Source: Podospora anserina (lineage: Eukaryota). Taken from it: 64,000 bases of DNA. Every line of letters starts with the position of its first letter. The stretch's first letter is position 1. A model generated the notes under the pieces. It was given only the letters and a program-made list of their open reading frames with translations. It was not told the DNA's origin and did not search any database. The position numbers and the translations under genes are program-made. This document shows positions 9,328-45,973 of the stretch, piece after piece. The stretch spans positions 4,588,001 through 4,652,000 of the forward strand of contig CM030336.1 in assembly GCA_017654855.1 (NCBI GenBank), given 5' to 3'.

Positions 9328-9338
9328 AACTCGGGTCC
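9328..9338. promoter_or_regulatory. Cluster promoter motif AACTCGGGTCC (FMO/OMT1 divergent promoter)
   Basis: Exact 11-mer that recurs in the other cluster promoters. Confidence 0.75.
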
Positions 9339-9435
9339 ATCACCACTGTAAGTGATAAACATCACTCTCACAGAGCCTCGCTAGAATAAATGAGATGACT
9401 ACACCATACCGACCTCCTCATCATCAGCGCCCACC

Positions 9436-10845
9436 ATGACATCCAACGCTCGACTTGCCCAGCTTTCACACACCATCCTGGAAAAGACCAAGATCGTAAC
9501 GGACCATTTAGCCTCCCGCAATCTCACAGCACCATCTTGGGACGTTGACGGCGCAGTCGACTTTCCCATCCCAGAGTCCGCAGGCGAGGCATACACGGCA
9601 AGGGTAGACCTAATCGCAGCCACAAAAGAGCTCCACGACCTCACCCTCGGTCCCAAGCAGGGCCTTTCATGGCTGTCATGGGATGTAAGCCGTGCCCCCT
9701 ACCCTTCCTCTCCACCCTGCCTCCAAAACTGACAAAAACCACCAGTTCATAAACAACCTCTCCCTGCAAGCAATCTGGGAATTCCGCGTCCCCGAATTTG
9801 TCCCCCTCACCGGCTCCATCTCCTTCGAAGACCTAACCGCCAAAGTCGTCGCCGCCAACGGCTTCAAAATCGGCGTCATGAACCTCCGGCGCTTGATCCG
9901 CCATGCGATGCTGAACCACATCTTTATCGAGCCGAGAAAAGGTTTCGTCGCTCACACGAGCGTGTCGAGGATGTTGCTGGAGGATGAACCGATGGCTAAC
10001 TGGGTTGGGTACATGTGTCGTGATCTGTGGAAGCCAGCTGCTCACGTTGTTGACGCGATGAAGAAGTGGCCTGGGAGCGAGGAGCCGACGGAGACGGCGG
10101 TGAATCACGCGTTTGAGCAGAGTTTGCCGTGGTACGATTACTTGCAGTCGGTGCCGGAGAAAGCGAGGAGGTATAACCTTGCGATGAAGCTGCATAGTGG
10201 GAATGAGGGGTTTTCGGTGGGGCATACGGTGAGGGGGTATGCTTGGGGGGAGTTGGGGGAGGCTACGGTTGTGGATGTAAGTCTTTCTCCACGCTGCGGT
10301 GCTGAGGGATGGAGTACTGATAGCGAGAGCAGATGGGCGGGAACCAAGGGTTCGTCTCTTTCGCCATAGCGGAGGCCTTTCCCAAGCTGAAATTTGTGGT
10401 GCAAGACACGGAGGGCATGAGAAAACCAGAGGCTATGGGACCGATGCCAGCTCACCTTGAAGAAAAGGTCACACGGACTGTACATGACTTTTTCGAGCCG
10501 CAGACGGTTGTTGCTGATGTCTACTTCTTCCGATGGATATTCCACGGTTTCTCGGACAAGTACAACATCATGATACTTCGGGCGCTGCGACCGGCGCTGC
10601 GCAAAGGAGCAAAGGTGGTCATCAACGACGGCACACTGCCAGAGCCACTGACGGCAAGCTACCTGCAGGAACGCAACATCCGCACCATGGACGCCTTCAA
10701 CCAGGTAACAGTGAACGCAAGGGAGAGGGAAATTGATGACTGGAGCGAGCTGTTCAGACTGGCTGATGAGCGGTACAAGTTCACGGGGGCGTGGAAGCCA
10801 GAAAACAGCCACATGTGGTTTATTGAGGCGGAATGGACCGGATAG
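9436..10845 (+). CDS. O-methyltransferase 1 (Methyltransf_2 family, 3 exons)
   Basis: N-terminal dimerisation helices; SAM-binding VVD|MGGNQG split by an intron (~10277-10332); HDFFEPQ; YFFRWIFHGFSD; AREREIDDW. Confidence 0.9.
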
Positions 10846-10895
10846 TGTGTACCTATTTTTCAATCATCTCAATACGAGCCTTCATAAATCTAAAG

Positions 10896-11943
10896 CTAAG
10901 TCCAGAGGAAGTGGTCAGCGCCGGGAATCTGGCGATGTCCAGCGATAGGGAAAGACTTGACAATCTTGTCCAGCTCCTCCTTCTCCTCCGTGGTGATCTC
11001 CACAACCGTCGAGTTCTCAATGACACGGTCCGCGCGGGTAGCTCCCGGAATAGGAATGATTTCACCGACGTCACCAGTGTTAGAATAGGACCTGATCCAA
11101 GCAAGTGCGAGCTGCGCCGGCGTCACCCCCTTCTTCTCGGCAAACGCCTTGACCTTGTCAACAAGCTCGAGGTTCTTGGCAAAGTTCTAAAAAAAAAAAG
11201 GGGTATCAGTAATAATAACACCGTGGGAAGAACTCATGGTCCCTTACCTCGGGCTGGAACCTTCCAAACATATGTCTGTTATCTCCCTGAGGAATATCCT
11301 CAACCTTCTTGATCTGACCCGTCAAGAAGCCGTATCCAAGAGGAGCATAGCTCAGCAGTACAACACCACACTCCTTAGCCGCCTTGGCCACGCCATTGGT
11401 AAGGATCTCACTGCTCCAGAGCGAGAACTCAACCTCGGCATGGGTGATGGGCACCACAGCGGCAGCCTTGCGGATCGTCTCGGCCCGAACCTCGGACAAA
11501 CCCACAGAGCCGATCTTGCCCTCGTCCTTGAGCTGCTTGAGAGCACCGACCGTCACCTCGACAGGGATGTTCTGATCCATCCGGGCAGGGCCGAAGACAT
11601 CAATGAACTTGACGCCCCCGAGGATGGCGTTGCATTCCTCCCAGCTGGCGCGCACGCCCTCGGGTGAGCAGCTGGGGGAGTAGGTTGTCGGATCGAAGCA
11701 GGCCCGGATGAAAAGGGTTACCTTTTCCGCATCCTCGGGGTACTTGGTGAAGTACCGGCGTAGGAGGTGAAGGCCGGCTGTGGGGGGGTCGGGGGGCAGT
11801 CCGTAGACGGAAGAAGTTGACCAGATGGTGGCGCCGGCGTTGATGGCGGCCTTCATGGCCTCGAAGGCTTGTTCATCCGAAGGCTTGTTGGGGCGCCATG
11901 TGTATCCTAGGAGGCCAAGACCGGTATGAGGGAGGGGCGACAT
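10896..11943 (-). CDS. Aldo-keto reductase (pyridoxal reductase-like)
   Basis: GLGLLG, GKIGSVGLSEV, EVEFSLW, LLSYAPLGYGFLTG, TPAQLALAWI and IPIPGAT. One intron at ~11187-11247. Confidence 0.9.
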
Positions 11944-12244
11944 GATGAGATAGATGCACGAGATGGGTAATGATAAGATAACAGAGTCTTGTAGATAGTG
12001 GTGTTCGATTCTGCGGATTTCGGGTCATTCAGGTCACATCGTCTTAAGAAGATTACGGTGGGTTTGTCACACGTTCTTAGAACCTAACCCCGCTCCTTCA
12101 CTGTTCCAAAGTCGGGGTTGCCAATTGCCTCATAGGGCTGCGTTGGATGCCTTCCCTTCCTTTGTCTCGGCCAACACCCCTTATCCCCGGACGTTAAATC
12201 CAGGATAGAAGCTGACGAGCTACCAAGGTACAAGCCAACGGGCC

Positions 12245-12255
12245 GGACCCGAGTT
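12245..12255. promoter_or_regulatory. Cluster promoter motif GGACCCGAGTT (AKR/SDR divergent promoter)
   Basis: Exact reverse complement of AACTCGGGTCC. Confidence 0.75.
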
Positions 12256-12381
12256 CAACGCCACCCGCCTTACATCCGTACATCCGACAGCGTCGCGCAT
12301 ATAGGGGGGGTACCTAATCCAAAACTCCGAACAAGGCAGGTCGATTCTTCCACCCCCTTCCCATCCCTTTTTATTCACACC

Positions 12382-13345
12382 ATGGTTGCCTTTGATCCTT
12401 CACGCCTGGGCGTGAACTTCACCTCCCAGACCCACAGCGACACATATGCCCAGATTGATCCTTCCGGCATCACCCCCGCGCCATGCATTGGAAGGACAAT
12501 CCTCGTTACCGGCGCCGCCAAAGGCATCGGTCGAGCCATTGTTGCGTCTTACGCCAAGGCGGGGGCCAATCGCATCGCCATCACCGCCCGCGGGGACGTA
12601 TCCGCCACCCATGCCGAGGCCCTCCAAGCAGCTGCAAAGGCGGGGAGAGATGACGTTGAATTTCTCATCCTCCGGCTGGACGTCAACGACCATGACACCA
12701 TCGAGGCATGCGCCCAGGAGCTGGCCTCTAGGTGGGGGCACATTGACATTCTTGTCAACAATGCGGGATACCTGGCACCGTTTGTGCCATTGGGCGAAGG
12801 GGACAGGGATGACTGGTGGTTGACGTGGGAGGTCAACGTGCGTGGTGTCTACTGGGTCATTCGTGCGCTTCTACCTCTTATCCTGAAGAGCAAGGACAAG
12901 ACGATTGTCAATCTCACCTCGGTCGGAGCCCTGGCGCTGACCCCCGGTGCGAGTGCCTATCAGCCGTCTAAGCTGGCGGTGCTGCGTTTGTCCGAGTATC
13001 TGATGGTGGATTACGAGTCCAGGGGCCTGCTGGTGTACTCTGTTCACCCGGCGTCAGTGGCGACTGATCTCGCTAACAATATGCCAGCAGAAATCGTTCA
13101 AGGTTGGTCATCACCCCGCAGAGTGTTTGAGGTTACATACCGCAGCTGACAAGAATTGAACGGCAGCTGTGTGTCATGATACTCCTGAGCTGGCCGGTGA
13201 TAGCATTGTGTTTCTGACCAGCGAGCGACGGGAGTGGTTGGCTGGGAGGTATATCAGCTGCGCTTGGGATATGCCTGAGCTGATGGCCAGGAGAAAGGAA
13301 ATCGTAGAGAAGGATCTATTGAAACTTCAGGTCCGGTTTCAATGA
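12382..13345 (+). CDS. Short-chain dehydrogenase/reductase
   Basis: TGAAKGIG, NNAG, catalytic YQPSK and VHPASV. Intron ~13103-13166, then exon 2 ...DTPELAGDSIVFLTSERREWLAGRYIS...RFQ, stop TGA 13343-13345. Confidence 0.9.
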
Positions 13346-13809
13346 AGTTATCTAGCCGAGGCCAAGCTTTTATTAGGCTTCTAGGCGTGAAGCTTGTTTG
13401 AGAGATGGGGTTGAATTGCGTGGGTCCACTGCGGGAATGCACAATTTCTACCCACTTGCCCCACAAAAGGGGGATATCACGATGTAAACAATGAGGGTCG
13501 TTGCCTACATAGTTTACGATTGCATCGCTTCTGCTACCGTGCATCTTTCACGTCATCTCTGCTTATATAATCTGTTTGTTTGATGGCGATGACCGGTTGT
13601 GATGAGCCCGGCACGGGTTAAAGCCAAGTTGCGTTCTTTATTCGCAATGAGCCCTCCTTTACACCCAGTATGTGCGCTAAGACAAGCCAACTTCAGAAGA
13701 CGCGAAGCTTGCATTCCATTCGTCTCTACTCTATTGTCATCAGAGCTAAACATCTTTTCTTTGCCTCCAGTTGGCGGCGGGTTAGGGTTCTGCCCGAGAA
13801 ACCAAGACA

Positions 13810-13820
13810 AACTCGGGTCC
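13810..13820. promoter_or_regulatory. Cluster promoter motif AACTCGGGTCC (OMT2 promoter)
   Basis: Exact 11-mer ~185 bp upstream of ATG 14004. Confidence 0.75.
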
Positions 13821-14003
13821 TGAACCCACCTTGGTGTTGACTGTCCTGAGAAATCAACATCACAGAACTCAGGTCTGTCCTTCGCTCGGTGGTTCATAGC
13901 AGTTAATAGATAGCCAATTGATTCATGGTCAGTGCACATTCAGTCCATCTTGAAGATTTGCAAGTACAGCATTTGCCGTGTCGAAAATAACTGCAATCAC
14001 ATC

Positions 14004-15753
14004 ATGGAGCGCTTCCCTCGCACATCCGAAGACGCCGACAAACTCCTCAAGCTATCGGACCTACTCCGTGACGCGGCCCTGACTGTCAAGGAAGAGTGGA
14101 GCAAAGAAGTCTTTGACGGACCATCAGACATTCCCAACGGCAAAGCAAGCGGTGGACACCACAGTCATGAAGCAACAGCCAGGATCCTCCCCAGTCGAAA
14201 GCTCTGGGACGCCGAGAGGACAATCGAGGCTGTCTCGGGGGTTTTAGTCGAGCTAGTCTCAGAGCCACACCAACGGATCCAGCAGGTGCTAACCCAATAC
14301 ATGGAATCAAGGGCTCTGTTCATTGCGGCTGAGCGCAGGATCCCGGATTTGCTTGCCGAGGCGGGTGAGGGGGGGTTGGATGTTGAGACTTTGGGGCAAA
14401 AGACCAAGATTGAGCACCGGAAATTAGGTAAGTCCTTTTGATATCAGGAAGTAGCCATCAGTTAAGAGAGAGAACTGAGACGTCAAAAAGCTCGTATCTT
14501 GCGTACACTCTGCGCAATCCACATCTTCACTGAAGTCGCCGAGGGCCGCTTCGCCAATAACCGCATTTCCGCTTCGCTGGTGCAAAACCCTGGTCTTCGG
14601 GCTTATGTGCAATTATTGTAAGATGAACCCCCCCCTCCCTCCCTCACTGACGCGCCTACTGACACCGGATGCAACAGCGGTCTGCACGTGTCCGCGGCGG
14701 CGGAGCATCTACCCCGCTACCTTGTCGGGCCGAAGGGCGCGTCTTACAAGGTGGAGGAGACGGCGTTCCATCACGCCATGGGGACTGACAGGCCGCTTTG
14801 GGAGTGGATGACACAGCGACTGCCTTCGGATCAGGTCACTTCTGATGGGCCTGGGTACCCTGGTGTGCCCGAGTTGGCGAACTTTCCTGTCTCGTTTGAT
14901 CACAAGGGTCTGGTGGGTAGGCCGGAGTTGGAGAACTTTGCTTTGGCTATGTTGGGGGGTGGTCAGGCGTCGGGTACTGCGCATGCGTATGGTGAGATAT
15001 TGTTACCCGCTTATGCTACGTTGGTGGGGCGAACAAGTACACTGACTGGGAGGTAGATTTTCCGTGGGGTGAACTTGGAGATGGGCTGGTTGTGGATGTC
15101 GGTGGTGGAGTTGGTACGTATTTTCGCGTCCATGGTAAGACACCTGGTAGCTGACAGCCAACAGGGGGGTTCGTCTTGCAACTCCTACCAATCTATCCCC
15201 GGCTCAAGTTTGTCGTTCAAGACCGGCCGGAAAACGTGGAGAGGGGCGAACGCGAGATATTCCCGGCTAAAGCCCCTGATGCCTTGGCTGCAGGGAGAGT
15301 CAAGTTCATGCCCCATGATTTCTTTACCGAAAACCCAGTGAAGAACGCGGATGTCTACTGGCTACGCGGAATTCTGTAAGATTTGGTCCCTTTTTGTTCT
15401 GTGCTCTACTGTCTAACAGTTCTAGACATGACTGGTCTGATGATTACTGCGTGAGCATTCTCAAAGCTGTCAAGGCTTCCATGGGCCCCAAATCAAGAAT
15501 TCTGATATGTGATCCCGTCATGAATACCACTTTTGGCTGCGATGAGATTGAAGCAGCACCGAGTCCGCTCCCAGCAAATTACGGGTACCATGTCCGTTAT
15601 TGCCACAACCGGGATATTGGTCTCATGGCGACCATCAACGGGATTGAGAGGACTCCTTCCGAGTTCAAGACCTTGTTCGAGGAAGCTGGGCTGCGCCTGG
15701 TGAAGTTCTGGGATACAAGGAGCATGGTCGGGATCACTGAGGCTGGTTTATGA
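14004..15753 (+). CDS. O-methyltransferase 2 (multi-exon)
   Basis: ATG 14004 (MERFPRTS). VVDVGGGVG, FVVQDRP, PHDFFTENPVKNADVYWLRGIL|HDWSD and NGIERT. Several GT-AG introns. Confidence 0.9.
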
Positions 15754-15964
15754 ACAAAGAAATAATTTGTATATGTTGTCCTACAACTGTTGCTTGGATG
15801 ATGAAAGCTATGAAAACAGAAATGTGTATCCGCGTGTGCAGAGCTGTCTATGGAAGTGTGAATCTTAAAATCCGCCAAAATTGTGAGATCTGCCATCCTG
15901 ATTACAAGTAAGAAAATTGTTGTCGACAGTGGGGTTGAAGGAGCCGCTCAGCTAGGTAAGGAAC

Positions 15965-17650
15965 TCAACGCCAAGCGTCCAGAGATTGGGGAATGGGGTG
16001 ATACGAGCTGAACACGCCGCGGGGGTCAAACTTGTTCTTGACCGCGGTGAGGCGCTGCTGGCGCCACTTCTCGCGTCCGTACAGCTGTGAAAGAGGCTCA
16101 TCGCCATGAGCATAGTTTTGGTAGATGTGAGTCTCCTTGTATCCAGAAACCTTGGGCTGGGCAAAGTGATCCCTCCAGCGCTTGGCAAAAGCATCCGCAG
16201 CCTTTGAAACAGAGGTGTCGTCAAAGGCAATTTCAAACTCGACGAGATGCTCAACACCATCACGGTGGGGGAAGGCGCTGTAATCGTCGGGAAGCTTCTT
16301 GATGCCTTGCTGAGCAAATGTCTCGACCAAGAAGGTGCTGGAGTTGGCAGCCGGGTTGGCCTTGATGAAATCTCCGAACTCGCTCCACAGCCGTACAAAT
16401 GAGGGGGCATCCAGCCGCTTGGTGCCCAGGCCGTACATGACGTGGTTCTGGCCCTTGGCGCACTTGATCAAGGTGATGCCACCGGCGCCCTTGATGGGGA
16501 GCTCGTCCCAAGAGTACATGTTTTCTTCGACGGAAAGGCTGTAGTTCTGGAAGCGGCGAGTGTACTTGCGTCCCTCTTCCCGGGGGCCGGCATAGACGAG
16601 GTTAAGCGCCACAATGGTCTGTCACGAACATGTTAGTACTAATCTTTCATCCAAAATCACCACCTATAGGTGGGTACTCACCTCGAGAGTGCTAGGATCG
16701 ACACTGCCAACCAGAATCAAAGACAGTGGCGCAGGGAGCGGGACAAGAGCGTTCATGTCGTCAATGATCTTCTTGACCTTATCGACGCTGAAGGCCAGGT
16801 TTGCCTCGTAGTGCATCCCACCGTTCACAGCGGGATATGTCTGAAATGTGGTTTCGATGACAACGCCAAAGTTCTGGCCAGCACCACGTACGGCCCAGAA
16901 CAAGTCCTTGTTGACCTTTTCTGAAGCCTCAATCACAGTGCCGTTCCACAGAGCCATGCGAACCTTGCGGACGTTGTCGCTTGTTAAACCGTGGAGACCC
17001 TGCAGCCTGCCGACACCACCGCCCAACATGGCTCCAGTTGCCCCAACGCAGGGACAGGACCCGGTAGCTGGTTGAAAAATGTTAGATCAAGAATGGAGTT
17101 TGCAGATGGAGTTGCTTTGACTTACTGACTTGTCTTCCAGCAGCCGCCAGAGGCCGAATCAAGTCCAAAAAGGTGGCACCGCTGCCAATGGTGGCCGTCC
17201 CGTCAGCGTTGACCCTGGAGTAGTTGAACTTCTCCATGTTGATCATGACCACATTTTGTGCGGCAGCGAGCTCGATAGAATAGCCATGCCCACCTGACTT
17301 GGCGAGAAACGAGATGTTGTTGCTTGTCATGTACCGAAGCTGTCATGCGTTAACTGAAAGTGTTCCAACAGCTTGTGGTGATGAAAACACACCCCCTCAG
17401 AAAGGACTTGCTCCGTCTCTGGGAGAAAGACTTGGTTGAAGCTTGGAGCCATGTAGGCATTCCATCTCTGGGACTTCTCTCCAAAGGAAGGCCAAGACGA
17501 GTTGAAAACTGAGTCGTCTATGGAGGTAGGCCAGCCGGTCTCTTGGCGCTCGAACCCGGCCCAGTGGACTGGTAAAGCCCCACTGATGACAGGCGAGGCG
17601 GCCCACAAAAGGGAAACGAGAGAACGAACGACGTTGCTGCTGCCAACCAT
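15965..17650 (-). CDS. FAD-linked oxidoreductase (berberine-bridge/VAO type) with a predicted signal peptide
   Basis: Hydrophobic N-terminus; KSGGHG (covalent FAD His); LGGGVGRLQGLHGL, DLFWAVRGAGQNFG; C-terminal BBE motif YQNY...KNKFDPRGVF. Confidence 0.9.
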
Positions 17651-18040
17651 GTTGACGGAAACGACTGACAGATGACACTAGGTGTACAAGAGAGGTGAGT
17701 CTGAACGACCTGAAGAATTCTTGAAATCTTGCGTCTATGACATGGCTTTTATGCTACTCTCGACTCGTTCGCTTCCTGACCTTGCAAGCCATTAGCTATC
17801 AAGGAGCTGACAGGTAGGGCTGAACGCTCGCCTGTTGGCATGACCGGTCTTGGCTTCGCCGCAGGGCTTCCCAGGCTATCGCCCTGACTGCTTGGTTTTT
17901 CCTTGGTATCCCGTCTGGTTGGGAAGATTACCATCATGATCCTCCGGAAATCGGCGGATGTGTAGCTGGCCAATGATCGTGTAGGATCTCACGGTGAACA
18001 AGCCGTTGGGAGTAAGGCTGCCGCCCCTTGTTCGGTAGAG

Positions 18041-18051
18041 GGACCCGAGTT
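18041..18051. promoter_or_regulatory. Cluster promoter motif GGACCCGAGTT (BBE/OMT3 divergent promoter)
   Basis: Exact 11-mer. Confidence 0.75.
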
Positions 18052-18412
18052 GCACTTCAAAAGTGCTAGAACGCCCAATTCGGTGAATGCACGACCTGGC
18101 GCAGCAAGCTCCCACGCCGCAAGAAGTGAGACGACGGATGAAATTTGAAGGTATTACTTGCACAAGGGAGTTCCTTGTTGCGATGCTCGACGGCTGGATC
18201 TAGTGATCTCTTGGTATCGAGAATCCGCAGCTAGATCAGCCAATGCCCACTCAACGCAGGTCCTAGCCGAGGTAGGTCCTGCAGCCACCGCATCACGGGT
18301 AGGTCCCAGCCATGTGGTAGCTAATATTACGATTTGACTTCTATGACACCTGACCATGTGTTTTCCATGCTTCCTTCGCCCCTGTAACTTCCTTTGCCCT
18401 GGTACCGAAACC

Positions 18413-19787
18413 ATGACCTTCACCACCGACGACGCTATTGCCCTGGTTGACAAGATTGAGGCAGCCATCGGCAGTCCTCACGCACTCGCGTCAATCCGGG
18501 ATGACGCGGTACGCTGTAAGCTGAGAGACGCAGCCTCCAAGCTGAGCCTCGCCTTGGAAACGCATAACGATGTGATTCACAGGATTGCCTACTCGGTGTG
18601 TCAGCACGGAGAAACCCCTTTCCAAGCCACACACTTCGCTGACACACGACCTCATCTAGCCGATGCAACTAGCCCTTGCCCGTGTGGGTGTCGATACTGG
18701 TATTTTCCGGTTTCTTGTGGTCAATAATGGCACCTCATCGGTTGAGCTTGCACGGGAGAGGAAGGTCGACCTAGTGTTAACACGTAGGAGCACATAACTA
18801 TCACACCCGGAGTTTCTATCCGTGCTAACTCCGTGACAGAACGGCTGTTGAGGTACTACCAGTCCGTCGGCATGATTTTGCAAAAGGGGCCAGATGAATT
18901 CGCCCCCAATAATGTCACGGAAGCATTAGCGTGGGAGGGTGGGCGAGCTGGCATCTGCTTCCAGTCTGACCTGGTTGCCCAGTCCCTCCTGGCCTTTCCC
19001 CAGTTTCTTCGAGAAACCGACTATGCCAACCCCACTAACGCAAAGTACACACCGTTCAATCTGGGACTGCAAACCGAGCGGACACTGTTTGATTGGATCA
19101 AGGACCACCCGGACACCCTCCAGCACTTCAACACATGGATGTCGGTGCAGAGGGATCCTCGGTCAACCTTTTTGGATGTGTTGCCGTTTGACCAGGAGTT
19201 TGCAAAGGATTCAAACGACGAGACGGTTGTTTTTGTTGATATTGGCGGCTCGCGAGGCCACCAGTGCATTGCATTGAGACGGCGATATCCGAACTTGCGG
19301 GGGCGTGTGGTTCTGCAGGATCTCCCTCATACGATTGAGCAAGTCAAGACGGATCCTCTTCCAGGGTTCGACAACATTGAGACGGATGTTCATGATATGT
19401 TTTCCTCTCAGACCATCAAAGGTATTGCTCTTACTGTTCTCCCTGATATTCTAAGCTCACAAGTCTATAACAGACGCCCGGGCCTACTACTTCCGAAATG
19501 TCTTCCATGACTGGCCCGATGACAAGTGCCAAGCTATTCTTGAGAGCCTCAAGCCAGCGTTGTCCAAAGACTCCGTGGTGTTAATTGACGACATTGTTGT
19601 GTCAAGCGTTGGGGCTCCATGGAGGGTGACGTTGGGAGACATGACAATGGCTGTCTGTTTGGCGGCCATGGAACGTACCGAGGCGGAATGGCGGAGACTT
19701 GCAAGCTCAACAGGGTTCGAAGTGGTCAAGATTTTGAAGTATAGGGAGGAGTATGAAGACTCGGTAATCGTCTTGAGAGTGGCATAG
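18413..19787 (+). CDS. O-methyltransferase 3 (4 exons)
   Basis: ATG 18413 (MTFTTDDA). FVDIGGSRGHQ, VVLQDLP, YYFRNVFHDWPD and MERTEAEW. Stop TAG at 19787. Confidence 0.9.
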
Positions 19788-20060
19788 CTCATTCTTGAGA
19801 GATGGAAGAGCAACTGAAATTCCGTGGAAAGCTTCGACTATCCTACCTAGAGCTTCAAGCAGCGTAGAATCGCTGTGAGTGATAATCAGGAACGTGCTAT
19901 GTAAAGTACATAAGTCATAGTCTCTATCCCAAGACTCTCTCATATGTACCCATCACTGTCATGAACCTTCTCGGAGTCAAACATTTTAGTCGCGGCAGTA
20001 GTCAACCTCAGATTCCATTACATACGTATCCCTGAGCCACGCCTTATCTTTCACCCAACC

Positions 20061-21925
20061 TCATCTCCGAGACTTAATACGAACATGGAATCCCGAAGGC
20101 ATCGTGAACCACTTTGTCTCCAGCGTCCACTCTCGCTCGGGGTTCAGTAGCTCAAACTGTGTGTATCTAGACTCAGCATAGAGCTCGCAGAAAGTGCAAG
20201 AATGTCATGTTCACTTACCTCGTACCGTTGCAACAACGAGGGGATGATCTTGTACACCTCAAAGTACGAAAGATTCTTGCCCAAACACACGCGGTGACCG
20301 GCTCCAAACTGACGGAGTTAATCTCAAGTAATCGCATTACAGGGTGGACGAGGGAAGAAACGCACTGTCAACAGCGAGTTATACATAGTCCTCTTTTTAT
20401 CCTCACCGCACATCCAACGCTCGGGTCGCCAGACATCAGGGTCATCTCCGTAGAGGCCTACTTCTCGGTGGACTGCCCATGGATTCTTGTGGGTAGTACA
20501 GGGTTAACAAGGTGTAAGCATATGCTCGCTGGGACAGCCTTACCATAGAGACTCTCGTTCCTGGTGGAATAAAGTACCCATCAACCTCCAAACCGCTTTG
20601 AGGCACAATACGCTCCAAGGGAAACCCAATCGGCGGATGTAAGCGCGACGCTTCTTTCACGCAAGCATCGAGATATGGCAACCGTTGTGACTCTTTCCAT
20701 GTCACCAACTTGGAGATACGTCCTTCCCGTGCGGCACTGCCAATCTCCTTTTGCAAGGTAACCAGCGTTTTGGGGTTCTTGAGAAGATGATACAGCACCA
20801 CGCTTGCCATGATGCTGGTGGTGTCACCGCCTGCTTGGATGTTGGAGTTTGTCCACGTGGGGAGGGCACTAATGGTCGTAAGTTTTGGATATTTGGCTGA
20901 CTTTGGTGCAAGTACTCACAGTTCAGGAAGAGTAGGATCTTTCCCAGCCTCACGGATGAAAGCGGAGAGGTAGTCCTTCTGGTTGATGTTTTCACGCTCT
21001 TCCTCTGTCAACGCAAGCCGCTCCTGGATTCGTGCCGCGCCGAACTCGGCGAGAGGATTCCTCTTGGCAGAGACTGGAATGAGCGGGTTGTCCTTCCAGA
21101 ACTTGTCCAGCCATGGTGTCTGAGTGTTCTTGTATCGTCGTTAGTGCTCGTAGAGACAAGTACAATCTCACTGTCATAGGGTAAATATGAACTCACCGCT
21201 GCCACATCTCGGAAATATTTCCAGTTATTCTCAATGACACCCTCGATATCACCACCCTTTTCAAGGAACCCCAATCGTCTTGAAAAGGTAACCTCGCCCA
21301 TGATGTCAAACGTGAAGAGTTGCAGCCAGTCTGAGAGGTTAAACCCCCGCCCCTTGTCAGTAAACATCTCATCGAGTCTGGAAAAGAAATACTCGATGGT
21401 GGAGACGACCAGCGGTTCAAACCTCGTCAGGTTTGCGATGGAGTAGAGGTTAGCAACTGGTCTTCTCATGCGCCTGTGAAGGTCCTCGTCGCGGGTCGCA
21501 AAGACATCGGGAATCTTGGCGCCTTTCATACGGGGTAATATCGAGTCGTAGAACTCGGACTGAGATATGCCGGATGAGAATTAGAGCCGTTGAAGCGGCA
21601 GACAAGACCGTACCTTCAGGAACTTGGCCTTGAAACCATAAATCTTATCAACGGCATCGGGCTGAGAGATGAGCACGGCATTGGGACCAACCCGGACGAC
21701 GGTTCCATAGCGACGATGCAGATCAGTATGCTTCTGATGGACATCTCCCGCCGCAACCCATGATCGGCGGACAAAGTCGGTGAGTGCGGCGGATGCCGGG
21801 CCGGGTATGTGACTGAGCCTGGAATGGGTGTGCAGTAACCGGAGGATGACAACACCCGCACCAACGGCAAGGAGGATACTGCTCAGGTTCGCGGTTCGAT
21901 CAGTAAAGCCCTTTAGGACATCCAT
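20061..21925 (-). CDS. Cytochrome P450 (pisatin demethylase-like, multi-exon)
   Basis: N-terminal TM anchor and HIPGP; I-helix AGGDTT; ExxR (KEASR); heme motif FGAGHRVCLG at ~20280-20309; stop TGA 20061-20063. Confidence 0.92.
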
Positions 21926-22054
21926 GATGAACGTTTTGGTAGGTAGGTACAATGCAAATTCGCTGCATGTGTGCAGATTGGTAGAGACTCTGCTCCGCTC
22001 CGACAGCTCATTGCTGGCTTATACCCCCATCATGATGGAATAGCCCCTCATCAT

Positions 22055-22086
22055 TACTCGGGTCCTCCCTCAACCAACTCGGGTTC
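22055..22086. promoter_or_regulatory. Two near-perfect copies of the cluster motif (P450/DUF1857 divergent promoter)
   Basis: TACTCGGGTCC at 22055-22065 and AACTCGGGTTC at 22076-22086, one mismatch each. Confidence 0.7.
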
Positions 22087-22178
22087 TCACCACAACAGCT
22101 TACAACAATGCTCTTCAACATCAGCCTACCTACGCCATCCCCTGATGTTATCAATATCGAGGCAATACTGAAGCGAAA

Positions 22179-22758
22179 ATGGCAACCTTCAACCTCTCCT
22201 ACACCGCCCCAATAAACCCCCCCGGCGCCTCCCCAGTCCTCACCCAGTCTCAAATCTGGGAGTGCATCAAGCGCAAAGTCCGACACGCAGAACATTTCGT
22301 GCCAGCAATCACCAAGACCGAGATCCTTTCCGAGTCCAAAGAAGGAGAAACAGTCGTCTCCCTCAAGCGACGCATAACATTTGCTCCCGGCGGCCACCCC
22401 GCCGGCGCCGAGAACGCCGTCGAAACATGCCACTTTTTTGAGCCATGCCGTGTTGACTTTGTGGGCGCAGACGGAAGCGCAATCATCAACGCTGTGAGCC
22501 GGGGCCCTGGTGTTGAAGCTCAGGATTTGAACTACACTTATATTTTTGAGTGGCGACATCCCGAGTTGGAAGCGGGCAGTGAAGAGGCAGCGAAACAGAG
22601 GGAGGCTGATTGGGCGGTGAGTGCCCTCCTGGACGGGTTGTCTGTGATCAGAGGGTGCAGGGTTGCTAACATACATTGGCGGATAGACCACTCAGCTGGC
22701 TGTTAACGCGACCATTGCGACTATGAGAAGCATGGTGAGCGAAGGGGTTGTGGGATGA
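22179..22758 (+). CDS. DUF1857 (AtaL-like, SRPBCC/START fold) protein
   Basis: YTAPINP...LTQSQIWECIKRKVRHAEHFVPAI is typical of the family. Intron ~22617-22686; last exon TTQLAVNATIATMRSMVSEGVVG, then stop. Confidence 0.8.
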
Positions 22759-23830
22759 TGCCAAGGTGGTAACAGCGTATTTTGCCATTGGATATGTGCC
22801 TAGTTACTTCACTGCTACTCTCGTTATAATTCATTGGAACAAAAACCATAGTTGTGAATCTTACCACCCGGCTCAGGGGTTTAGATAGGGGGCTAATTTT
22901 GCGCCGTTGAGGACTGAAGTTCCAGGACGCCAGCCCTACACATAATCTTGGCAGAAACGGCACCGGAAAGACTGTTCCGGAGCTGTTGTGTCGCCCAACA
23001 TGCACTCACTGTGTCTATAGGGCTGCTGTTCATAGGTGGGCGAGACAGAGCATCGGCTGTGTCTCACAGCAGACGCAAGTAAGAAAGCACACTGTGCGAC
23101 ACGGTCGATCCCGACAAGCTGTCTTCTGCTGAGTTACACTGTGGGGTAATCAGTTCCATGAAACCAACGTCCAGTCCGAAGAGATAAGCAAACAGCAATC
23201 AAGCTCAACATGGAGTCCGATCCTGCATTGGAGCCAGGTTCCCTTGAAAAGCAGACTGAAAACACCCGTGTAGAAATGACCCCCACCTAGCCTCTTTCAC
23301 GGATTGCCGTATATTGTTGACGCGGCCGGAAGTCGGAAGAGAGGGCCGTTCCATGGTCGAGGACGCTGAAGGATTCAACCTGCTGCGTTGTGGGTTACAC
23401 AAAAGGGGCGGGGAACCGGTGGTGCTGATGCCGGTAATACAGTTATGTCCGGAGAGTGCTTCGTGTCTCAACACACCCTCTGGCGATGTGGCGGTTGACG
23501 CTGGGCGCCCGTGATGATGGAGAGTTGGAGTCATGGGTAGGTATACATAAGATACGGTCCGTAGAAGGGGGACAGCGGTGGGAGAACCGAATGCTGAAAA
23601 AGTCAGTTCAACACCCGAACCAAAGAATTGCTACTACTTTTGAGAGATGATGTGATCAGAGTGTTGAGGCCATCGTGGGGGTTGTAGGGTAAATGATGGG
23701 CCACGCTGACTGTGAATGGCTACATTTACGAGAAACACGATGAAAATCCATACGTGGAGGCCTCACTTCAGCCCCCCAACTGAGACTGCGTGCACACCTG
23801 GGTGTGAGTCGGGTCCGTCGAGATGCCAGC

Positions 23831-23841
23831 AACTCGGGTCC
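23831..23841. promoter_or_regulatory. Cluster promoter motif AACTCGGGTCC upstream of the Myb gene
   Basis: Exact 11-mer, with the variant GAGTCGGGTCC at 23806-23816. Confidence 0.7.
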
Positions 23842-24570
23842 TCGGCGAAAGTCAGGGGAATCCCGGGTGGAAAGGTTGGGACACGAGGCTCAGAAAGGGA
23901 ATAATAGAGGTTGATTATGGGACCAACCCCGATCCCAGACAGTGGCCATGATATTGCACCCATGCTGCAAGGTGCAAGCGTGTAAGCTCTGCAGCAAACG
24001 GTGGCCCAATCGGTTTATCTGATCAGCCGCGCCAAGTCTGCAATAGGCATGCCGCCGATGCAGTTTGGTGAGTAAGGTGGCCAAGGGAGTATTGGAAAGA
24101 CCAGGATCAAAGCAAGGGATCATGACCGGAAGACAGATGTCGAGTGAGGGGAACTTGCGGCTCTTCGAGAAAGGCGGTTGAGAGGTGCCGATGAGAGAAT
24201 CAGGTGACGGCTTGCCTCTCCGCTTCCCATTCTGAAACCTGATGTCCAATATCTAACCCCGCACTGTCGAGGCAGAGCTCTTGCATTGTGCAAAGAGACG
24301 ACGGTCTCAGAACAGATCCTACGAAGCAGGTGACGTCGCACCCAGATCCCCAAGCCGCTGCACACGCCCCATAGGGGGGTGACAGCGTTAAAGATTCTAG
24401 CCGGCCACCGAGACCTTACAGATGTCTGCAGCGACGGAGGGGTATCATCGCTAAAACATTGTCTTCATCTTTCTTCTCTCTCTTTTGTAGACTGGACAGC
24501 GCTGGACAATTCCTGTTCGTTTCAAACATCGACGGGCATATCGAGGTTCAACCCTTGACACATCAATCCC

Positions 24571-26006
24571 ATGTCCGGCCAGGTTTCTAGGCGGGAACGA
24601 AGGTGGTGGACGAAGGACGAAGACGACATTCTCAGAGATTGGGCCAAGGTGCAAAGTACCAACCCCTTCCATCACAAGCCTCGGTGAAGTATTTGTGTGA
24701 ATCTCGCTGACTTGGTGGGCAAAAGTCGATACACACGGCGCTGTCAAAAACTGGAATGAGGTGGCAGCTTTGCTGCCTGACAGGACGAACAAGGATTGCC
24801 GTAAGCGATGGCACAAGGTACGAGTCGATATCAAGAGGGGGGCGTGGACCCCCGACGAGGATAGGAAGCTACGACAGGCTGTGGCGCAGGCTGGATTAAA
24901 GTCAGTGTGTCCCTTGATACACTAACATGTATCTTGTCACCTGACTTGTCATTAACTGGGAGCAGATGGTCAGCAGTGTCCAAGATGATGCAAACGCGGA
25001 ACGCCGACCGTAAGTCGTTCCATACCTATCTGTCAAGCTGTTGGTTCCGAAATATCTGACAAGAGATGATTGCATCCTACGGGCAGAATGCGCCAAAAGA
25101 TGGCAACACGTGCTCGGGCCGGACCACAGACATGATCCCTGGACCCCTGAAGAGGATAGAATACTACAGGAAGCAGTTGCGAAATATGGCAACAACTGGA
25201 AGCAGATTGGACTGTTGGATCTGCCAGATCGCTCAACCCATGATATTAGAAATCGGTAAGCACGAACCAACAAGACCACCGGCCGCCCCCATCCCCCCCC
25301 CCCGGTTCCCAGTTGGCGCTAACAGATCTTTGGGTGCAGTAGCGTCGCCTTAAATCGACGGAAACGTCGGTCCAGGGCCCCATCGAATGACGACCCTTCC
25401 ACTTCAACGCAATATCTCTCGGACGACAACGCAGACGACAACAGTTCGAGCGGCGAAGAATCCGACTTGAGCTCTGATGATGCCGAATTAGCCAACTTGA
25501 ACGAGGACCAACACATGATGATGGAAGTCGACGCCGCCCCGGCCCCACCAACACCCACACTGTCGGAAACCTTGGCAGATGCGTCCATCTTTTCCAACTG
25601 GGAAATGGCCAGCCCGGCAACAATGTTGACGCAGGTGCGGCCGCTGGATGCAGACTCCCATCCGTGGCTTTGGTTCTCGACTGAATCAAGCTCCTCGGGA
25701 CAAACTCCCGATCAGCACCTCTCGCCGGAAAACCTGAGCCTGGCGTTTGAGAGTGGCCAGGACATGGGTCACTTGATGGGTGGCGCGGAGATTCAAGTTG
25801 CTCCACAAATTTCCCAAAACGAGAACCCTCAGAGTGCTGCTCCAGCAACGCAGCAGCCACCCCAACAAGACTACCGAGGACAGGCTGAAGCACCTGGAAG
25901 TGTCACTGTTCTCCTGAGGCAAGCTGACTCGCAGCTCGCACAGCAGGTTATTGGCAATCTGTTAAACCTCAATGCAGACGTGGTAATCCGTCTGCTCAAA
26001 GACTGA
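24571..26006 (+). CDS. Three-repeat Myb/SANT transcription factor (probable cluster regulator)
   Basis: Spliced reading: MSGQVSRRERRWWTKDEDDILR...NWNEVAALLPDRTNKDCRKRW; GAWTPDEDRKLRQAV...WSAVSKMMQTRNAD.CAKRW; PWTPEEDRILQEAVAKYGNNWKQI...RSTHDIRNR; then an acidic C-terminal region. A 5'-UTR intron acceptor lies near 24490. Confidence 0.88.
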
Positions 26007-26268
26007 TGGCTTTGCTCCACATTGTTGACTTGGCCAGTCAGGGGCACATTCAGGGGTATTTTCTATGCATGGACCGAAGTGGTCGTGGTCTTCATTTTAA
26101 TGTACATCGAAGGGCCTGTCTCTTAGCATATATGGAATGTTTGGTCAAATACGAATCATGTAGCAGCCTACTGCTCTATCATTGTAATATCTTTGTTCTG
26201 GAGTTAACATTGACCGAGTTGAATGACGTTAACAAGGTTGCTCGCAATTACCACTGTTTTCTGTTAGC

Positions 26269-26302
26269 AGACCCGAGTTGTTGGCACGCGCGACTCGGGT
26301 CT
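26269..26302. promoter_or_regulatory. Inverted pair of cluster motifs upstream of the NRPS-like gene
   Basis: AGACCCGAGTT (26269-26279) and GACTCGGGTCT (26292-26302) form an inverted repeat. Confidence 0.7.
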
Positions 26303-26441
26303 CACTCTTGAACGAGCCAGAGTCCCATTCAACACCATATTGACAGAATATTTTGCAATGTCACTTAAAGTCTAATCTTGACTGCAAAACCACTCCTCAC
26401 TGAGACCAAGGCCACAAGACATTCCAAAAGAGGCCGTTCCG

Positions 26442-29400
26442 ATGCGTGCTTTCATTCCTGCGAGGGTGACTCTTGAGCCTGACCGACAAGATGCCATCCG
26501 TTCTCTCTCCGACATTGTCGAGTTCCACGCCGAAAAGAATCCCGACTACTTGTTTTGTGTTCAAGCTGAAAAGAAACCAGGTCTTGATGGGTACTCTTTG
26601 AGCCGTGTGACTTATACCACCCTGAAGTGGGCTATTACGAACTGCTGCCAATGGCTCGAAGCACATTTGTCTCATCTTCAACAACGTACTCGGCGGGGGC
26701 AAGGTGATGCTGATGGATCACAAGGACCGATAGTCCTACTGATGGAGAGCGATCTCGGTCTGGCCGTCTACATCCTGGCTCTTATGAGATTGGGCATACC
26801 GGCGGTTCTGCTCTCAACAAGGCTCAGCGCGACCGCAATTCACCATCTCATCGGGCGCACTGGAGCCACAACAGTCATTGCCTCGCAGCGTCTCCGTTCG
26901 ATGCTAGACGAGCCAACCCCGGCGGTCGATACCAAGTTCCAGAATGGTGAACCCCAAAACAAAGGCCTTCAGGTCTTTACCGCCGCCGGGTACCAAACTT
27001 TCCTGAACGACCTGGACTCCCCTCTGGAGACCAATGTGTCGGTGCAGACCACCAATCCAGCGCTAATTCTGCACTCATCCGGCACATCTGGACTCCCAAA
27101 ACCAATCTACTGCACCCACGCCCACTTCCTCGCTTTCTCTCAATGTCACGAGTTTGAAACGGCAGAACAACGCCAAGGTCTAACCGTCTCGTCATCGCCC
27201 TTCTTTCACGTAAGCGCCTCCCCCTTCAGGTTCACAACACAGCCGCGCAGTTACCTAACCACCATCATAGGGCTTCGGCCTAGTACCAATGTGCCTCTCC
27301 CTCGGCATCGGCAAAACCTTCTGCATTCCCCCCTCCTCCGAACTCCCCACCGGCTCCTCCATCGTCCAGCTCCTCCAAGCCTCCAGCTCCAAAGCCCTGC
27401 TGACTGTCCCTTCACTTCTCGAAGACATCGCCTCCCTCCCAGACAACAAAGGAGTAACCGCCCTCCAACAACTCGATTTCGTCGCCTTTGGAGGCGGCCT
27501 CCCGAAGCCTTCTATCGGCCAACGTCTTAATGCAGCAGGTGTAAGACTCATCAACCACTACGGCGCGACCGAGACAGGACCCCTAACCCCGTTTTTTGTC
27601 CCGCCTGCTGGACATGACTGGCGGTTTATTCGGTTGAGAAGGGATATTGACTACGCGATGGAGGTGGAGCTGATGCCAACGACAACAGATGGTGAATTTT
27701 TAGGTCGGGCGTATAAACTCAGCATGCGGCCATTTGGCTGGACAGAACGCTTCGAACTACAAGACTTGCTCCTCGCTCGGGAGGGTTTCCCTGGGGAGTT
27801 TCGTATCGCGGGACGAACAGACGATCTCATTTGTCTTGCTACCGGGGAGAAGGTCCGCCCGACGATGCTGGAGACTATCCTCCAACAGCATGACAAAGTC
27901 AAGACTGCCGTTGCGTTTGGGGATGCGCAGTTCGAGATTGGGGTTATTGTTGAGACGACAACGAGGGAGGTGGCTGACGGGGATGAGCTAAGGGGGGAGA
28001 TATGGCCTCTGGTGGAGGAGGCAGGGAGGCAGATGGATGCCCATGCGAGGGTTTCTTCCCCGGCGGCGATTTTGTTTGTTGGTTCTGGGGCTCTGCCGAG
28101 GTCGGATAAGGGGACTGTGTTGAGGAGGGAGGTGAATCGGGTTTTTGAGAGGGAGATTGCGGGCGTGTATAGGTGTATTGATGCTATGGCCAGTGCGCCG
28201 GCGTTTGATCTTTCTTCGCCGCGGGAAAGCGTCAGGGGTTTGGTCAAAGCGGTGATGGCGTCTAGGGGTGGGTATTGGTCGGATGAGGATGACTTTTTCG
28301 AGCTTGGGATGGATAGCTTGCAGGCGACGAGGTTGCGGAGACTGTTGGTTGCTTCGCTGAGAGCGGCCGCGCAAGAAGGTAGAAATTGGGAGGTGGATGT
28401 TAGGAACGTGGCTGACGATGTTGTTTATCGCAATCCTTCTGTCAGTCGGCTTGCTGAGGCCATTGTAACGCAAAACACAATTCAGAATGGGCTGTCGAGC
28501 TTGGGTCACCTGGAGCAAATTGCGGACAGGTACTCCAACGTGACTTCAGAAACCATTGCGCAACGGGCAGTCGTGGTCATGACCGGCAGCACTGGAAGTC
28601 TTGGGTCGTTTATTCTGGCACAACTTGTCAAAGTCCCGACAGTGGCCGGGGTTATCGCTCTCATCAGACCCTCAGCCGAACCAGCGCAGGAAAGGCAGAA
28701 GAATGCCTTGAAAGCCCGAAACATCGAGCTGTCTGACTCAGAGTGGTCAAAGATACAGATCTACGGGGCAGACGTGGGGGCGCCCTTTCTTGGCCTGGAC
28801 AGTGGCGTGTACCAGCAAATCGCATCCAAAGCCACACATGTGGTGCACGCTGCCTGGCCAATGAACTTCAACATGTCCCTCCAGTCTTTTGGTTCCGCCT
28901 TTCGAGCTCTGCAGAACTTGATACAGCTAACTTCCGAGTCTCACCGACTCCAGCCATCGAAGAGACCTCGCTTTCTATTCATTTCATCCATATCCACAGT
29001 CGGGAACTATCCCTCTCTTCACAAAGAGCGTCTTGTGCCAGAAGAGGCTGTCAGTGGCCAAAACTGCGCTCTTGAACTGGGGTACGCAGAAGCAAAGTTG
29101 GTATGCGAGAAGATAGTCGAGCGAGCAGCGCGCGATTACCCCCAGATCCAGACAGGTTTTGCGCGTGTGGGCCAAATCGCCGGCTCTCGGAGTGGATATT
29201 GGAACGTGGATGAACATTTTGTTGCGCTTGTCGCCTCGTCGTGCAAAGTCCGCCTCATTCCAGATCTTCAAGGGGTGAGTAGAAATGGAACGTGCCTTGG
29301 TGAAAGTGGCCTTGCTAACCAGATGCTCAGACTCTTTCTTGGCTGCCAGTCGATGCTACTGCAGCAGCGGTAGTCGATATTTTGCTCAACGATCAGCCAC

Positions 29401-29735
29401 CGGAGCTTGTCTACCACTTGGAGAACCCAGTACGGCAAAGCTGGCATGAAATGATCACGCTCTTGTCCAGTGAGTTGGGGTTCGCTTCTACACAAGTGGT
29501 GTCGTTTGAGGAATGGGTGGAAGCTGTCATGTCAGCGCCAGATCAGGGTAACCCTGCGAAGAAACTGTCGCGTTTTCTGAAGAATGAGTTTCGCAAGATG
29601 TCGTGTGGAGGGATAATCTTGGACACCGTCTTGGCTCGGAAGGCTTCACCTACACTGAGAGGATTGGGGCCAGTTGACAGTGAACAGGTGCGGCTGTATA
29701 TCAAGTACTGGAAGCATAGCGGTGTGCTGGGTTGA
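26442..29735 (+). CDS. NRPS-like carboxylic acid reductase (A-T-R)
   Basis: A domain ILHSSGTSGLPK, HYGATETG and GRTDD...GEKV; T domain LGMDSL; R domain TGSTGSLG, HAAWPMNF and GYAEAK. Introns ~27210-27270 and ~29275-29330. Confidence 0.93.
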
Positions 29736-30466
29736 TGATAGGGTACATACGGGGATTATTTGCTCCATAAACTCACACCAAAGCATTGCTATGAAATGTG
29801 ACGTGAGATCATGTACGTATCAAGCGAGGTAATCCGATAGCCAGTGTGTAAGCTACCTAAAGTAGGTTGCTGTTACATAATTCTTGAATGACAACAGCTT
29901 GGTTACCTACACAACTGGTAGAGGGCACGAGGTCCGAGGTCTTTGATACCTAAACTGTGATGTAGTGGATCAAGCCCATGATAGCCTTCGTCACTGGGTA
30001 CCTCGTGAGCGATAGGCGCCTTTTGGGTAGCCGACAGATACGAGAACGCCGCCATCATGGATGCTATCTTAGGTTCCTACCTACATACCGGCGGAGTGAT
30101 AGGATATCTTGCGGCAATTACCTTGAATCATCTTATAGGTCTTTGATAGAATGCTGCTTGTGCCTGTCGAGGCTGCTGGGACCCGAGCTGGGTCTGATGA
30201 GCGAGGTGACCTGCACTGGGATTACCGCTTTGAGGAGAAACTCTAACCCTACAATCCAACAACGGTATTCAACTTCCTCGGTAGTGACCAGTTTCTTGAT
30301 GGTAGCTGACCAAACTCGACATAGAGCTTGTTATTCGAATATAGCAATTCTTGCGAGAAACCAGGTTTGCATACTAGTGGTTATCGGTCACACTGCCTTA
30401 TTTGCGCTGGACTAAGCTCTCACGAGGATCCGTGTCAAGACTGCGTGGTGACATCCCTTCAAGCAC

Positions 30467-30477
30467 GGACCCGAGTT
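30467..30477. promoter_or_regulatory. Cluster promoter motif GGACCCGAGTT (PKS promoter)
   Basis: Exact 11-mer ~230 bp upstream of ATG 30708, with the variant GGACCCGAGCT at 30179-30189. Confidence 0.75.
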
Positions 30478-45929: not shown

Positions 45930-45973
45930 TTTGTTGGTTTTGGGGGGAGGGTTGAAAGTGGAGAGATGGATGG

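What the first reader, a model, noticed from the sequence alone, without database searches (positions are those of the whole stretch)
9328..30477. One 11-bp motif (AACTCGGGTCC) marks every promoter of the polyketide cluster: a candidate regulon
Seen: exact copies at 9328, 12245 (rc), 13810, 18041 (rc), 23831 and 30467 (rc), and 1-2 mismatch copies at 22055, 22076, 23806, 26269, 26292 and 30179. Together these cover all eight upstream regions serving the 12 genes. I saw no copy upstream of the flanking F-box or Zn2Cys6 genes. Six exact intergenic copies of an 11-mer in ~21 kb is far beyond chance. Known: Myb repeats contact AAC cores. Inferred: this is the site for the in-cluster three-repeat Myb protein, and it defines the cluster boundaries (7169-37606). 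I do not recognise it as a described fungal site. Its CGG could instead serve a Zn2Cys6 factor.
Basis: partly seen in the sequence, partly recalled or inferred. Interest (0 to 1): 0.85.

Follow-up and report, generated by a model that had tools for sequence, protein, structure and literature searches.

The report
Conserved promoter word of Myb clusters
A ten-letter DNA word sits in front of every gene of a fungal polyketide gene cluster and recurs in the promoters of distantly related clusters that carry the same kind of Myb regulator, so it is very probably that regulator family's binding site, though binding has not been tested.

Summary
In detail: six exact AACTCGGGTCC copies (0.01 expected). 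The real unit is the 10-mer ACTCGGGTCY: 9 copies, at least one in all 8 upstream regions of a 12-gene Podospora-type polyketide cluster, none elsewhere in the window. A second fungus with syntenic Myb, reductase and PKS genes keeps two sites in each of three orthologous promoters. Among 43 distinct Myb loci from metagenomes the word occurs 24 times (about 1 expected): 19 in 7 of 9 PKS/NRPS-like clusters, 5 in 3 of 4 tailoring-gene loci, 0 in 30 others. It is the top de novo 9- and 10-mer there without the window, once one telomere array is masked. It tracks one Myb subtype (9 of 11 against 1 of 11), a split made after the fact and not phylogenetically independent. Best reading: the activation site of a family of cluster-resident three-repeat Myb factors (0.8). 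The AAC-core argument fails (first A in 6 of 24 related sites), and the neighbouring Zn2Cys6 gene is absent from the related loci. Not shown: binding, need for expression, genome-wide rarity, Myb-less clusters. I found no paper describing the site.

The parts
9329..9338 (+). site ACTCGGGTCC in the divergent FMO/OMT1 promoter (about -197 and -106 from the predicted ATGs)
12245..12254 (-). site in the divergent AKR/SDR promoter (-310, -129)
13811..13820 (+). site upstream of OMT2 (-192)
18041..18050 (-). site in the divergent FAD-oxidoreductase/OMT3 promoter (-399, -364)
22056..22086 (+). perfect site 22056-22065 plus a one-mismatch direct copy 21 bp on, in the divergent P450/AtaL promoter
23832..23841 (+). 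site upstream of the Myb gene itself (-738): candidate positive feedback; L001 has two perfect sites upstream of its Myb
26269..26302 (.). pair of ACTCGGGTCT sites (- then +) upstream of the NRPS-like gene; same arrangement in L001
30179..30195 (.). 17-bp near-palindrome of two overlapping imperfect sites in the PKS promoter, identical in L001 at nearly the same distance from the ATG
30467..30484 (-). perfect site with an 8-bp extension in the PKS promoter; 18 bp identical in L001, both about 240 bp from the ATG
24571..26006 (+). three-repeat Myb factor, 5 exons (24571-24655, 24726-24900, 24966-25009, 25087-25255, 25340-26006), 379 aa; proposed binder
   Evidence: model; all 4 introns joined in contigs of 4 of 4 runs; Pfam 3 repeats on the near-identical P0001; fold
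7169..9133 (-). FAD-dependent monooxygenase (FAD_binding_3, Rng_hyd_C)
9436..10845 (+). O-methyltransferase 1
10890..11943 (-). aldo/keto reductase
12382..13345 (+). short-chain dehydrogenase
14004..15753 (+). O-methyltransferase 2
15965..17650 (-). FAD-linked oxidoreductase (FAD_binding_4, BBE)
18413..19787 (+). probable O-methyltransferase 3 (read from the translation; its two ORF pieces gave no Pfam hit)
19953..21925 (-). cytochrome P450
22179..22758 (+). AtaL-family protein (PF08982)
26442..29735 (+). NRPS-like reductase (adenylation, carrier, reductase domains)
30708..37606 (+). non-reducing PKS KS-AT-PT-ACP-ACP-cMT-esterase, no starter-unit (SAT) domain found

Best explanation
ACTCGGGTCY is a cis-regulatory element and most likely the binding site of the three-repeat Myb protein encoded in the cluster. 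Proposed working: the Myb binds the asymmetric 10-bp word as a monomer in either orientation, mostly 100-500 bp upstream of the start codon; one site in a divergent promoter serves both genes; a site upstream of the Myb gene gives positive feedback; the disordered acidic C-terminal half activates transcription, so the PKS, the reductase and nine tailoring genes come on together. The same word is read by a wider subfamily of cluster-resident Mybs (first recognition helix ending KRW-x-K-[VIL]) in other fungal polyketide clusters. Shown: enrichment, promoter placement, conservation, co-occurrence with the Myb subtype, spliced Myb transcript, three folded repeats. Inferred: direct binding, monomer binding, activation, feedback.
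For: Window: 9 sites, 8 of 8 upstream regions, 0 outside. Orthologous footprint in L001 (coding DNA 68-74% identical): two sites in each of 3 of 3 orthologous promoters in the same orientations; the Myb and NRPS-like promoters align no better than shuffles, and in the weakly alignable PKS promoter the two longest perfect runs (17 and 18 bp) are the sites. Wider loci: 24 sites in 417,963 bp of 43 non-redundant loci, about 1 expected; 19 in 7 of 9 PKS/NRPS-like loci, 5 in 3 of 4 tailoring-gene loci, 0 in 30 others; p=7e-4 against the 10 others of 5 kb or more. De novo without the window ACTCGGGTC is the top 9-mer (20 seen, 0.81 expected), also without L001 (15, 0.65), and first of 5040 same-composition words. 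20 of 24 sites lie within about 710 bp upstream of a recognisable gene start (read by eye). Myb subtype against motif among 22 loci of 5 kb or more: 9 of 11 against 1 of 11, p=0.002; 23 sites in 201 kb against 1 in 143 kb. Two PKS clusters with another Myb subtype (L050, L065) have none. Myb and NRPS-like genes carry consecutive locus tags in Alternaria burnsii, A. dauci, Lobaria immixta and Colletotrichum acutatum. A Myb-type cluster activator has a precedent in CicD (PMC8395729, passages).
Against: No binding or expression test. All comparison loci were fetched by their Myb gene, so Myb-less PKS clusters were never tested; attempts to fetch such controls gave none. The subtype rule and the locus classes were set after the counts had been seen; a stricter two-helix rule gave 8 of 10 against 2 of 12, p=0.008; the tree offers only 1 independent pair on well-supported branches, so co-variation is not shown independently of kinship. 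Exceptions: L029 has a promoter site though its Myb is of another subtype; L027 and L041 have the subtype but no perfect site. Genome-wide frequency could not be counted.
Confidence: 0.8

Rival explanations
1. The element is real but is read by a factor encoded elsewhere, a general regulator of this class of polyketide clusters (for example a three-finger C2H2 protein; the reverse strand begins GGACCC, like the yeast Nrg1 site as I recall it), with the Myb acting through another site or as a partner.
For: Loci were selected through the Myb, so motif without Myb was not testable. L029 has a site beside an off-subtype Myb. A 10-bp asymmetric site also fits three zinc fingers (general knowledge).
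Against: Two PKS clusters with another Myb subtype lack the word (L050, L065). No second shared word comes near it in the nine clusters. Sites also lie upstream of Myb genes (window, L001, L067, L078).
Confidence: 0.13
2. The Zn2Cys6 protein next to the PKS (37790-40294) reads the CGG in the motif.
For: It abuts the cluster and the word holds a CGG triplet.
Against: No tblastn hit for it in 80 related loci. Single CGG, no fixed partner: paired sites are 21, 31 and 35 bp apart in direct pairs and differently spaced in opposed pairs. No site in its own upstream region. L027 holds two fungal-TF-domain genes and no perfect site. Caveat: L001 stops inside the PKS, so that flank was not seen, and L072 does hold a fungal-TF-domain gene.
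Confidence: 0.03
3. Composite control: the Myb binds the word but needs a partner bound next to it at key promoters, as yeast Bas1 needs Bas2.
For: The proximal PKS site keeps an 8-bp extension identical between the window and L001. Bas1 needs Bas2 (PMC6234034, passages), and the first two recognition helices are Bas1-like.
Against: Flanks are not conserved over 41 collected sites; the extension is seen at one promoter in two species only; the same paper found no bas2 orthologue in A. nidulans.
Confidence: 0.03
4. Chance or a relic of repeats or promoter duplication, with no function.
For: None beyond the absence of a functional test.
Against: Shuffle controls, no long repeat shared by the promoters, conservation in non-alignable orthologous promoters, independent rediscovery in other clusters.
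Confidence: 0.01

Closest known systems
CicD (AN6446), Myb-like pathway-specific activator of the cichorine cluster of Aspergillus nidulans
   Same: Myb-type factor inside a non-reducing PKS cluster; its deletion abolishes cichorine (PMC8395729, passages). Aspergillus proteins of 341-343 aa, the length given for CicD (PMC11199622, passages), are 48-49% identical to this Myb domain and group next to its clade.
   Different: That those proteins are CicD orthologues rests on length and taxon only. No binding site for CicD appeared in my searches. CicD is listed there with two repeats; this protein has three.
Azasperpyranone cluster A of Aspergillus terreus (ATEG_03629 PKS, ATEG_03630 NRPS-like, FMO, P450, regulator ATEG_03638)
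   Same: PKS plus NRPS-like enzyme, FMO, P450 and an in-cluster regulator (PMC8948627, passages): the closest described enzyme set.
   Different: This cluster adds three methyltransferases and further redox enzymes, and its PKS lacks a SAT domain; product unknown. Whether ATEG_03638 is a Myb was not confirmed from any call.
Yeast Bas1 and A. nidulans BasR (fungal Myb factors)
   Same: First two recognition helices match Candida BAS1 (KDCRKRW, DQCAKR). The Bas1 site TGACTC (seen in a reference title in PMC6234034) shares ACTC with the motif.
   Different: Third helix differs; only four bases are shared and the TG is not kept; Bas1 and BasR are unclustered regulators.
POX01678 of Penicillium oxalicum
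   Same: Member of the same Myb clade, three SANT domains, deleted in PMC7118919 (passages).
   Different: Studied only for cellulase output (about 30% higher on deletion); no cluster role or site in the passages seen.
Cluster-specific factor sites such as those of AflR and Tri6 (recalled)
   Same: One short word repeated across the promoters of a biosynthetic cluster and read by an in-cluster factor.
   Different: Those factors are zinc proteins with other words; here one asymmetric 10-mer is shared by clusters of different gene content whose Myb domains are only 47-64% identical.

Membership tests
pathway-specific factor site of a fungal biosynthetic cluster | present in the promoters of the cluster genes | tested here: met
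   8 of 8 upstream regions
pathway-specific factor site of a fungal biosynthetic cluster | rare outside the cluster | tested here: inconclusive
   0 in the other 33.6 kb of the window and 0 in 30 other Myb loci; whole genome not held
pathway-specific factor site of a fungal biosynthetic cluster | conserved in orthologous promoters | tested here: met
   3 of 3 promoters in one other species, L001-L004
pathway-specific factor site of a fungal biosynthetic cluster | bound by the in-cluster factor and needed for expression | not testable with these tools
   needs gel shift, DAP-seq or ChIP and reporters
three-repeat Myb protein | three tandem helix-turn-helix repeats | tested here: met
   Pfam PF00249 three stretches; nine helices at pLDDT about 90; best solved match c-Myb 1h88
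c-Myb-type AAC-reading Myb | c-Myb base-contact residues and a YAACNG-type site | tested here: not met
   K128 position is D and N179 position is H in the alignment (roles and numbering recalled); first A kept in 6 of 24 related sites
Bas1-type fungal Myb | Bas1 recognition-helix signatures | tested here: inconclusive
   repeats 1 and 2 match Candida BAS1, repeat 3 does not; Bas1 lies outside the clade in the tree, where it served as outgroup
Bas1-type fungal Myb | TGACTC site | tested here: not met
   only ACTC shared; preceding bases free
CicD orthologue | orthology with AN6446 | tested here: inconclusive
   AN6446 itself was not returned; look-alikes by length and taxon form a sister group at SH-aLRT 93
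Zn2Cys6 dimer site | two CGG triplets at fixed spacing | tested here: not met
   single CGG, variable spacing and orientation of pairs

The most novel reading that the evidence does not exclude
One 10-bp word is the common operator of a whole subfamily of cluster-resident three-repeat Myb factors spread over several ascomycete classes. Because paralogous clusters keep the same word, one Myb could switch on several unlinked polyketide clusters of a genome. Records with one assembly prefix hold three different motif-bearing clusters (L044, L048, L076), and cross-reading would explain the site in the L029 group beside an off-subtype Myb. Whether those records come from one fungus is not known. 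The word would then be a portable tag for finding, bounding and waking such clusters.
Probability: 0.4. Interest if true: 0.75.

Novelty: new variant of a known kind. Interest (0 to 1): 0.58.

Why it matters
Myb-type regulators of fungal biosynthetic clusters are known genetically (CicD) but I found no binding site for any of them. A 10-bp site kept across unrelated clusters gives a direct test of how this family works, a sequence tag to delimit clusters and find outlying target genes, a prediction of feedback and of cross-talk between clusters, and a compact promoter part for expressing silent pathways in laboratory fungi.

Tried and rejected
Genome-wide count: no genome held. The rest of the L001 contig could not be searched, so only three orthologous promoters were compared. 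Controls without a Myb: the NRPS-like query gave only 7 weak bacterial matches in genome contigs and none in viral contigs. The first de novo ranking was topped by a telomere-type array in L065 and was redone with such arrays masked. The independent-pairs test had no power. L017 (same Myb as L014) and L070 (too short) were dropped from the subtype tables; loci under 5 kb (20 of 43) were left out of them too. Sequencing runs: no RNA holder listed on record; four runs guessed to be RNA were laid only for their splice joints, depth was not used. Repeat search showed no long repeat shared by the promoters. Second motifs: a 10-mer with 3 copies and an 8-mer pair in the OMT3 promoter are absent from L001. 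SAT remnant upstream of the PKS: none. Literature: ten searches; those with the motif letters listed no paper describing it; the one fungal listing with a letter match is a primer. The original cichorine paper and a Bas1 DNA-binding paper are not held. Lichen cluster papers checked name Zn2Cys6 regulators, not Myb, for the usnic acid and depsidone clusters. Earlier scan findings: nothing relevant. No complex prediction was sent: DNA cannot be the partner.
Full report
OBSERVATION. One-mismatch matches number 10 against 1.19; two-mismatch matches are at chance level, 21 against 18.2. Within 7169-37606 the word is the top 11-mer and ACTCGGGTCC the top 10-mer after allowing for the number of words. 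Allowing C or T at the last place gives ACTCGGGTCY: 9 matches, 0.24 expected, at least one in each of the 8 upstream regions, none in 5 tail-to-tail gaps, none upstream of the flanking F-box or Zn2Cys6 genes and none in the rest of the window, although only 20% of the cluster is intergenic. Eight of the nine lie 100-400 bp from a predicted start codon; the one before the Myb gene lies at -738.

THE CLUSTER. Twelve genes: FAD monooxygenase, three O-methyltransferases (the third read from its translation only), aldo/keto reductase, short-chain dehydrogenase, FAD oxidoreductase, P450, AtaL protein, Myb, an NRPS-like reductase and a non-reducing PKS with C-methyltransferase and esterase domains. 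No SAT domain or remnant was found upstream of the PKS. From the A. terreus cluster A described in PMC8948627 (passages) I infer a methylated orsellinaldehyde that is hydroxylated, oxidised and methylated; the product is unknown. The Myb falls in a 90% cluster with Podospora proteins including PODANS_5_11015. Its five-exon model is matched at all four introns by contigs of 4 of 4 runs from four studies, runs only guessed to be RNA. The near-identical P0001 has three Pfam Myb repeats and folds into nine confident helices followed by a disordered stretch; the best solved match is c-Myb.

ORTHOLOGOUS PROMOTERS. A metagenome scan with an alignment of 20 close Myb proteins returned the best 80 of 193 matches, which collapse to 43 groups. 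L001-L004 are one other fungus with Myb, NRPS-like gene and SAT-less PKS in the same order, coding DNA 68-74% identical. Each of the three orthologous promoters keeps two sites in the same orientations. The Myb and NRPS-like promoters align no better than shuffles; the PKS promoter aligns weakly (97.5 against 20.5 +/- 12.8) and its two longest perfect runs, 17 and 18 bp, are the two sites, at -529 and -241. This is one species and three of eight promoters.

DISTANT CLUSTERS. ACTCGGGTCY occurs 24 times in 417,963 bp of the 43 representatives; the Markov expectations sum to about 1. By gene content (classes set after I had seen the counts): 19 sites in 7 of 9 loci with a PKS or NRPS-like gene, 5 in 3 of 4 loci with only tailoring-type genes, 0 in 30 others (189 kb); against the 10 others of at least 5 kb p=7e-4. 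Ranking words without the window first returned a telomere array of L065; with such arrays masked ACTCGGGTC is the top 9-mer, with or without L001, and first of 5040 words of its composition. Reading by eye, 20 of 24 sites lie within about 710 bp upstream of a recognisable start (PKS, NRPS-like, P450, methyltransferase, dehydrogenase, sulfotransferase, transporter, Myb); three lie 1.2-1.7 kb upstream of a Myb gene and one between genes of L014. The first A of the 11-mer is kept in only 6 of 24 and flanks are free.

WHICH FACTOR. Among 22 loci of 5 kb or more (L017 dropped as a copy of the L014 Myb), 9 of 11 whose first recognition helix ends KRW-x-K-[VIL] hold the word, against 1 of 11 others (p=0.002); a stricter rule gave 8 of 10 against 2 of 12 (p=0.008). 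Both rules are after the fact, several loci are kin, and the tree gives one independent pair on supported branches, so this is a correlation only. Two PKS clusters with another subtype lack the word (L050, L065); L029 has it despite another subtype; L027 and L041 have the subtype and only one-mismatch matches. Motif-bearing Mybs other than L001 are 45-64% identical to this domain. Named relatives sit beside the NRPS-like gene by consecutive locus tags in four genomes. The Zn2Cys6 neighbour has no match in the 80 loci, which reach at most 10 kb from the Myb, and the sites show no paired CGG. The AAC argument fails, since the A is free and c-Myb contact positions differ (roles recalled). The first two helices match Candida BAS1 and the Bas1 word TGACTC shares ACTC, a weak lead. 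The main gap is that every comparison locus was fetched by its Myb; Myb-less clusters could not be obtained and no genome was held, so an unclustered factor is not excluded.

MECHANISM. Most likely the Myb binds single asymmetric sites in either orientation, one site serving both genes of a divergent pair, reinforces its own gene, and activates the cluster through its acidic disordered tail. Placement, conservation and co-occurrence are shown; binding, activation and feedback are inferred. Confidence 0.8 for the Myb as binder, higher for the word being functional.

KNOWN AND NEW. In-cluster regulators with a repeated promoter word are a known kind (AflR, Tri6; recalled). CicD is a Myb-type cluster activator (PMC8395729, passages; PMC11199622, passages), and POX01678 is a deleted member of this clade with no site in the passages seen (PMC7118919). 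Pa_5_11000 is named only as a polyketide synthase in PMC6709928 (passages). Ten searches listed no paper describing the word; PMC6337363, PMC8557879, PMC13062703, PMC7643366, PMC6234034 and PMC4482186 were seen as passages only. I read no supplements, the original cichorine and azasperpyranone papers were not seen, and motif databases were not available, so the word may be on record there.

VERDICT. Real, conserved, apparently undescribed cis-element; probably the family-wide site of cluster-resident three-repeat Mybs. New variant of a known kind; interest 0.58.

Noticed in passing
window 29736-30708; L001 15220-16308: The non-reducing PKS starts almost directly with its KS domain in both fungi; no SAT domain or remnant was found, while related clusters L014 and L067 have one. 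How it is primed is unexplained; the adjacent adenylating enzyme is a candidate.
   Followed up: partly
window 22860-23672: Contigs of RNA-like runs cover the stretch between the AtaL gene and the Myb promoter; its 141-aa minus-strand frame has no Pfam hit. Long 3' end or an unannotated transcript just left of the 23832 site.
   Followed up: partly
window 30477-30484; L001 16079-16087: An 8-bp extension beside the proximal PKS site is identical in both fungi; possible partner site.
   Followed up: partly
window 24571-26006: The P. anserina database entry of this Myb is 274 aa, shorter than the 379-aa spliced model supported by joints.
   Followed up: no
L017 8331-11629: A 3.3-kb copy of the L014 Myb region, 97% identical, sits alone in AT-rich flanks without the cluster.
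   Followed up: partly
L065 7360-9306 and 16229-16342: PKS cluster beside a transposase and a telomere-type array, with a Myb of another subtype and no site.
   Followed up: no
L051 7837; L054 2802: A variant word with TT in place of TC lies about 2.2 kb upstream of a widespread Myb of another subtype; flanks are alike too, so it may be plain kinship.
   Followed up: no
L005 9929; L029 11710; L030 6370; L027 5408; L048 7611 and 7643: One-mismatch variants recur at promoter-like places, including 75 bp upstream of the L005 Myb and a pair upstream of the L048 P450; they may be weaker sites.
   Followed up: partly
window 18272-18306: Two copies of an 8-bp word 27 bp apart just upstream of OMT3; not in L001, which does not reach an OMT gene.
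   Followed up: no
window 43788-63605: Outside the cluster: NUDIX protein, pectate lyase, ankyrin-repeat protein and a NACHT-type NTPase; ordinary.
   Followed up: no
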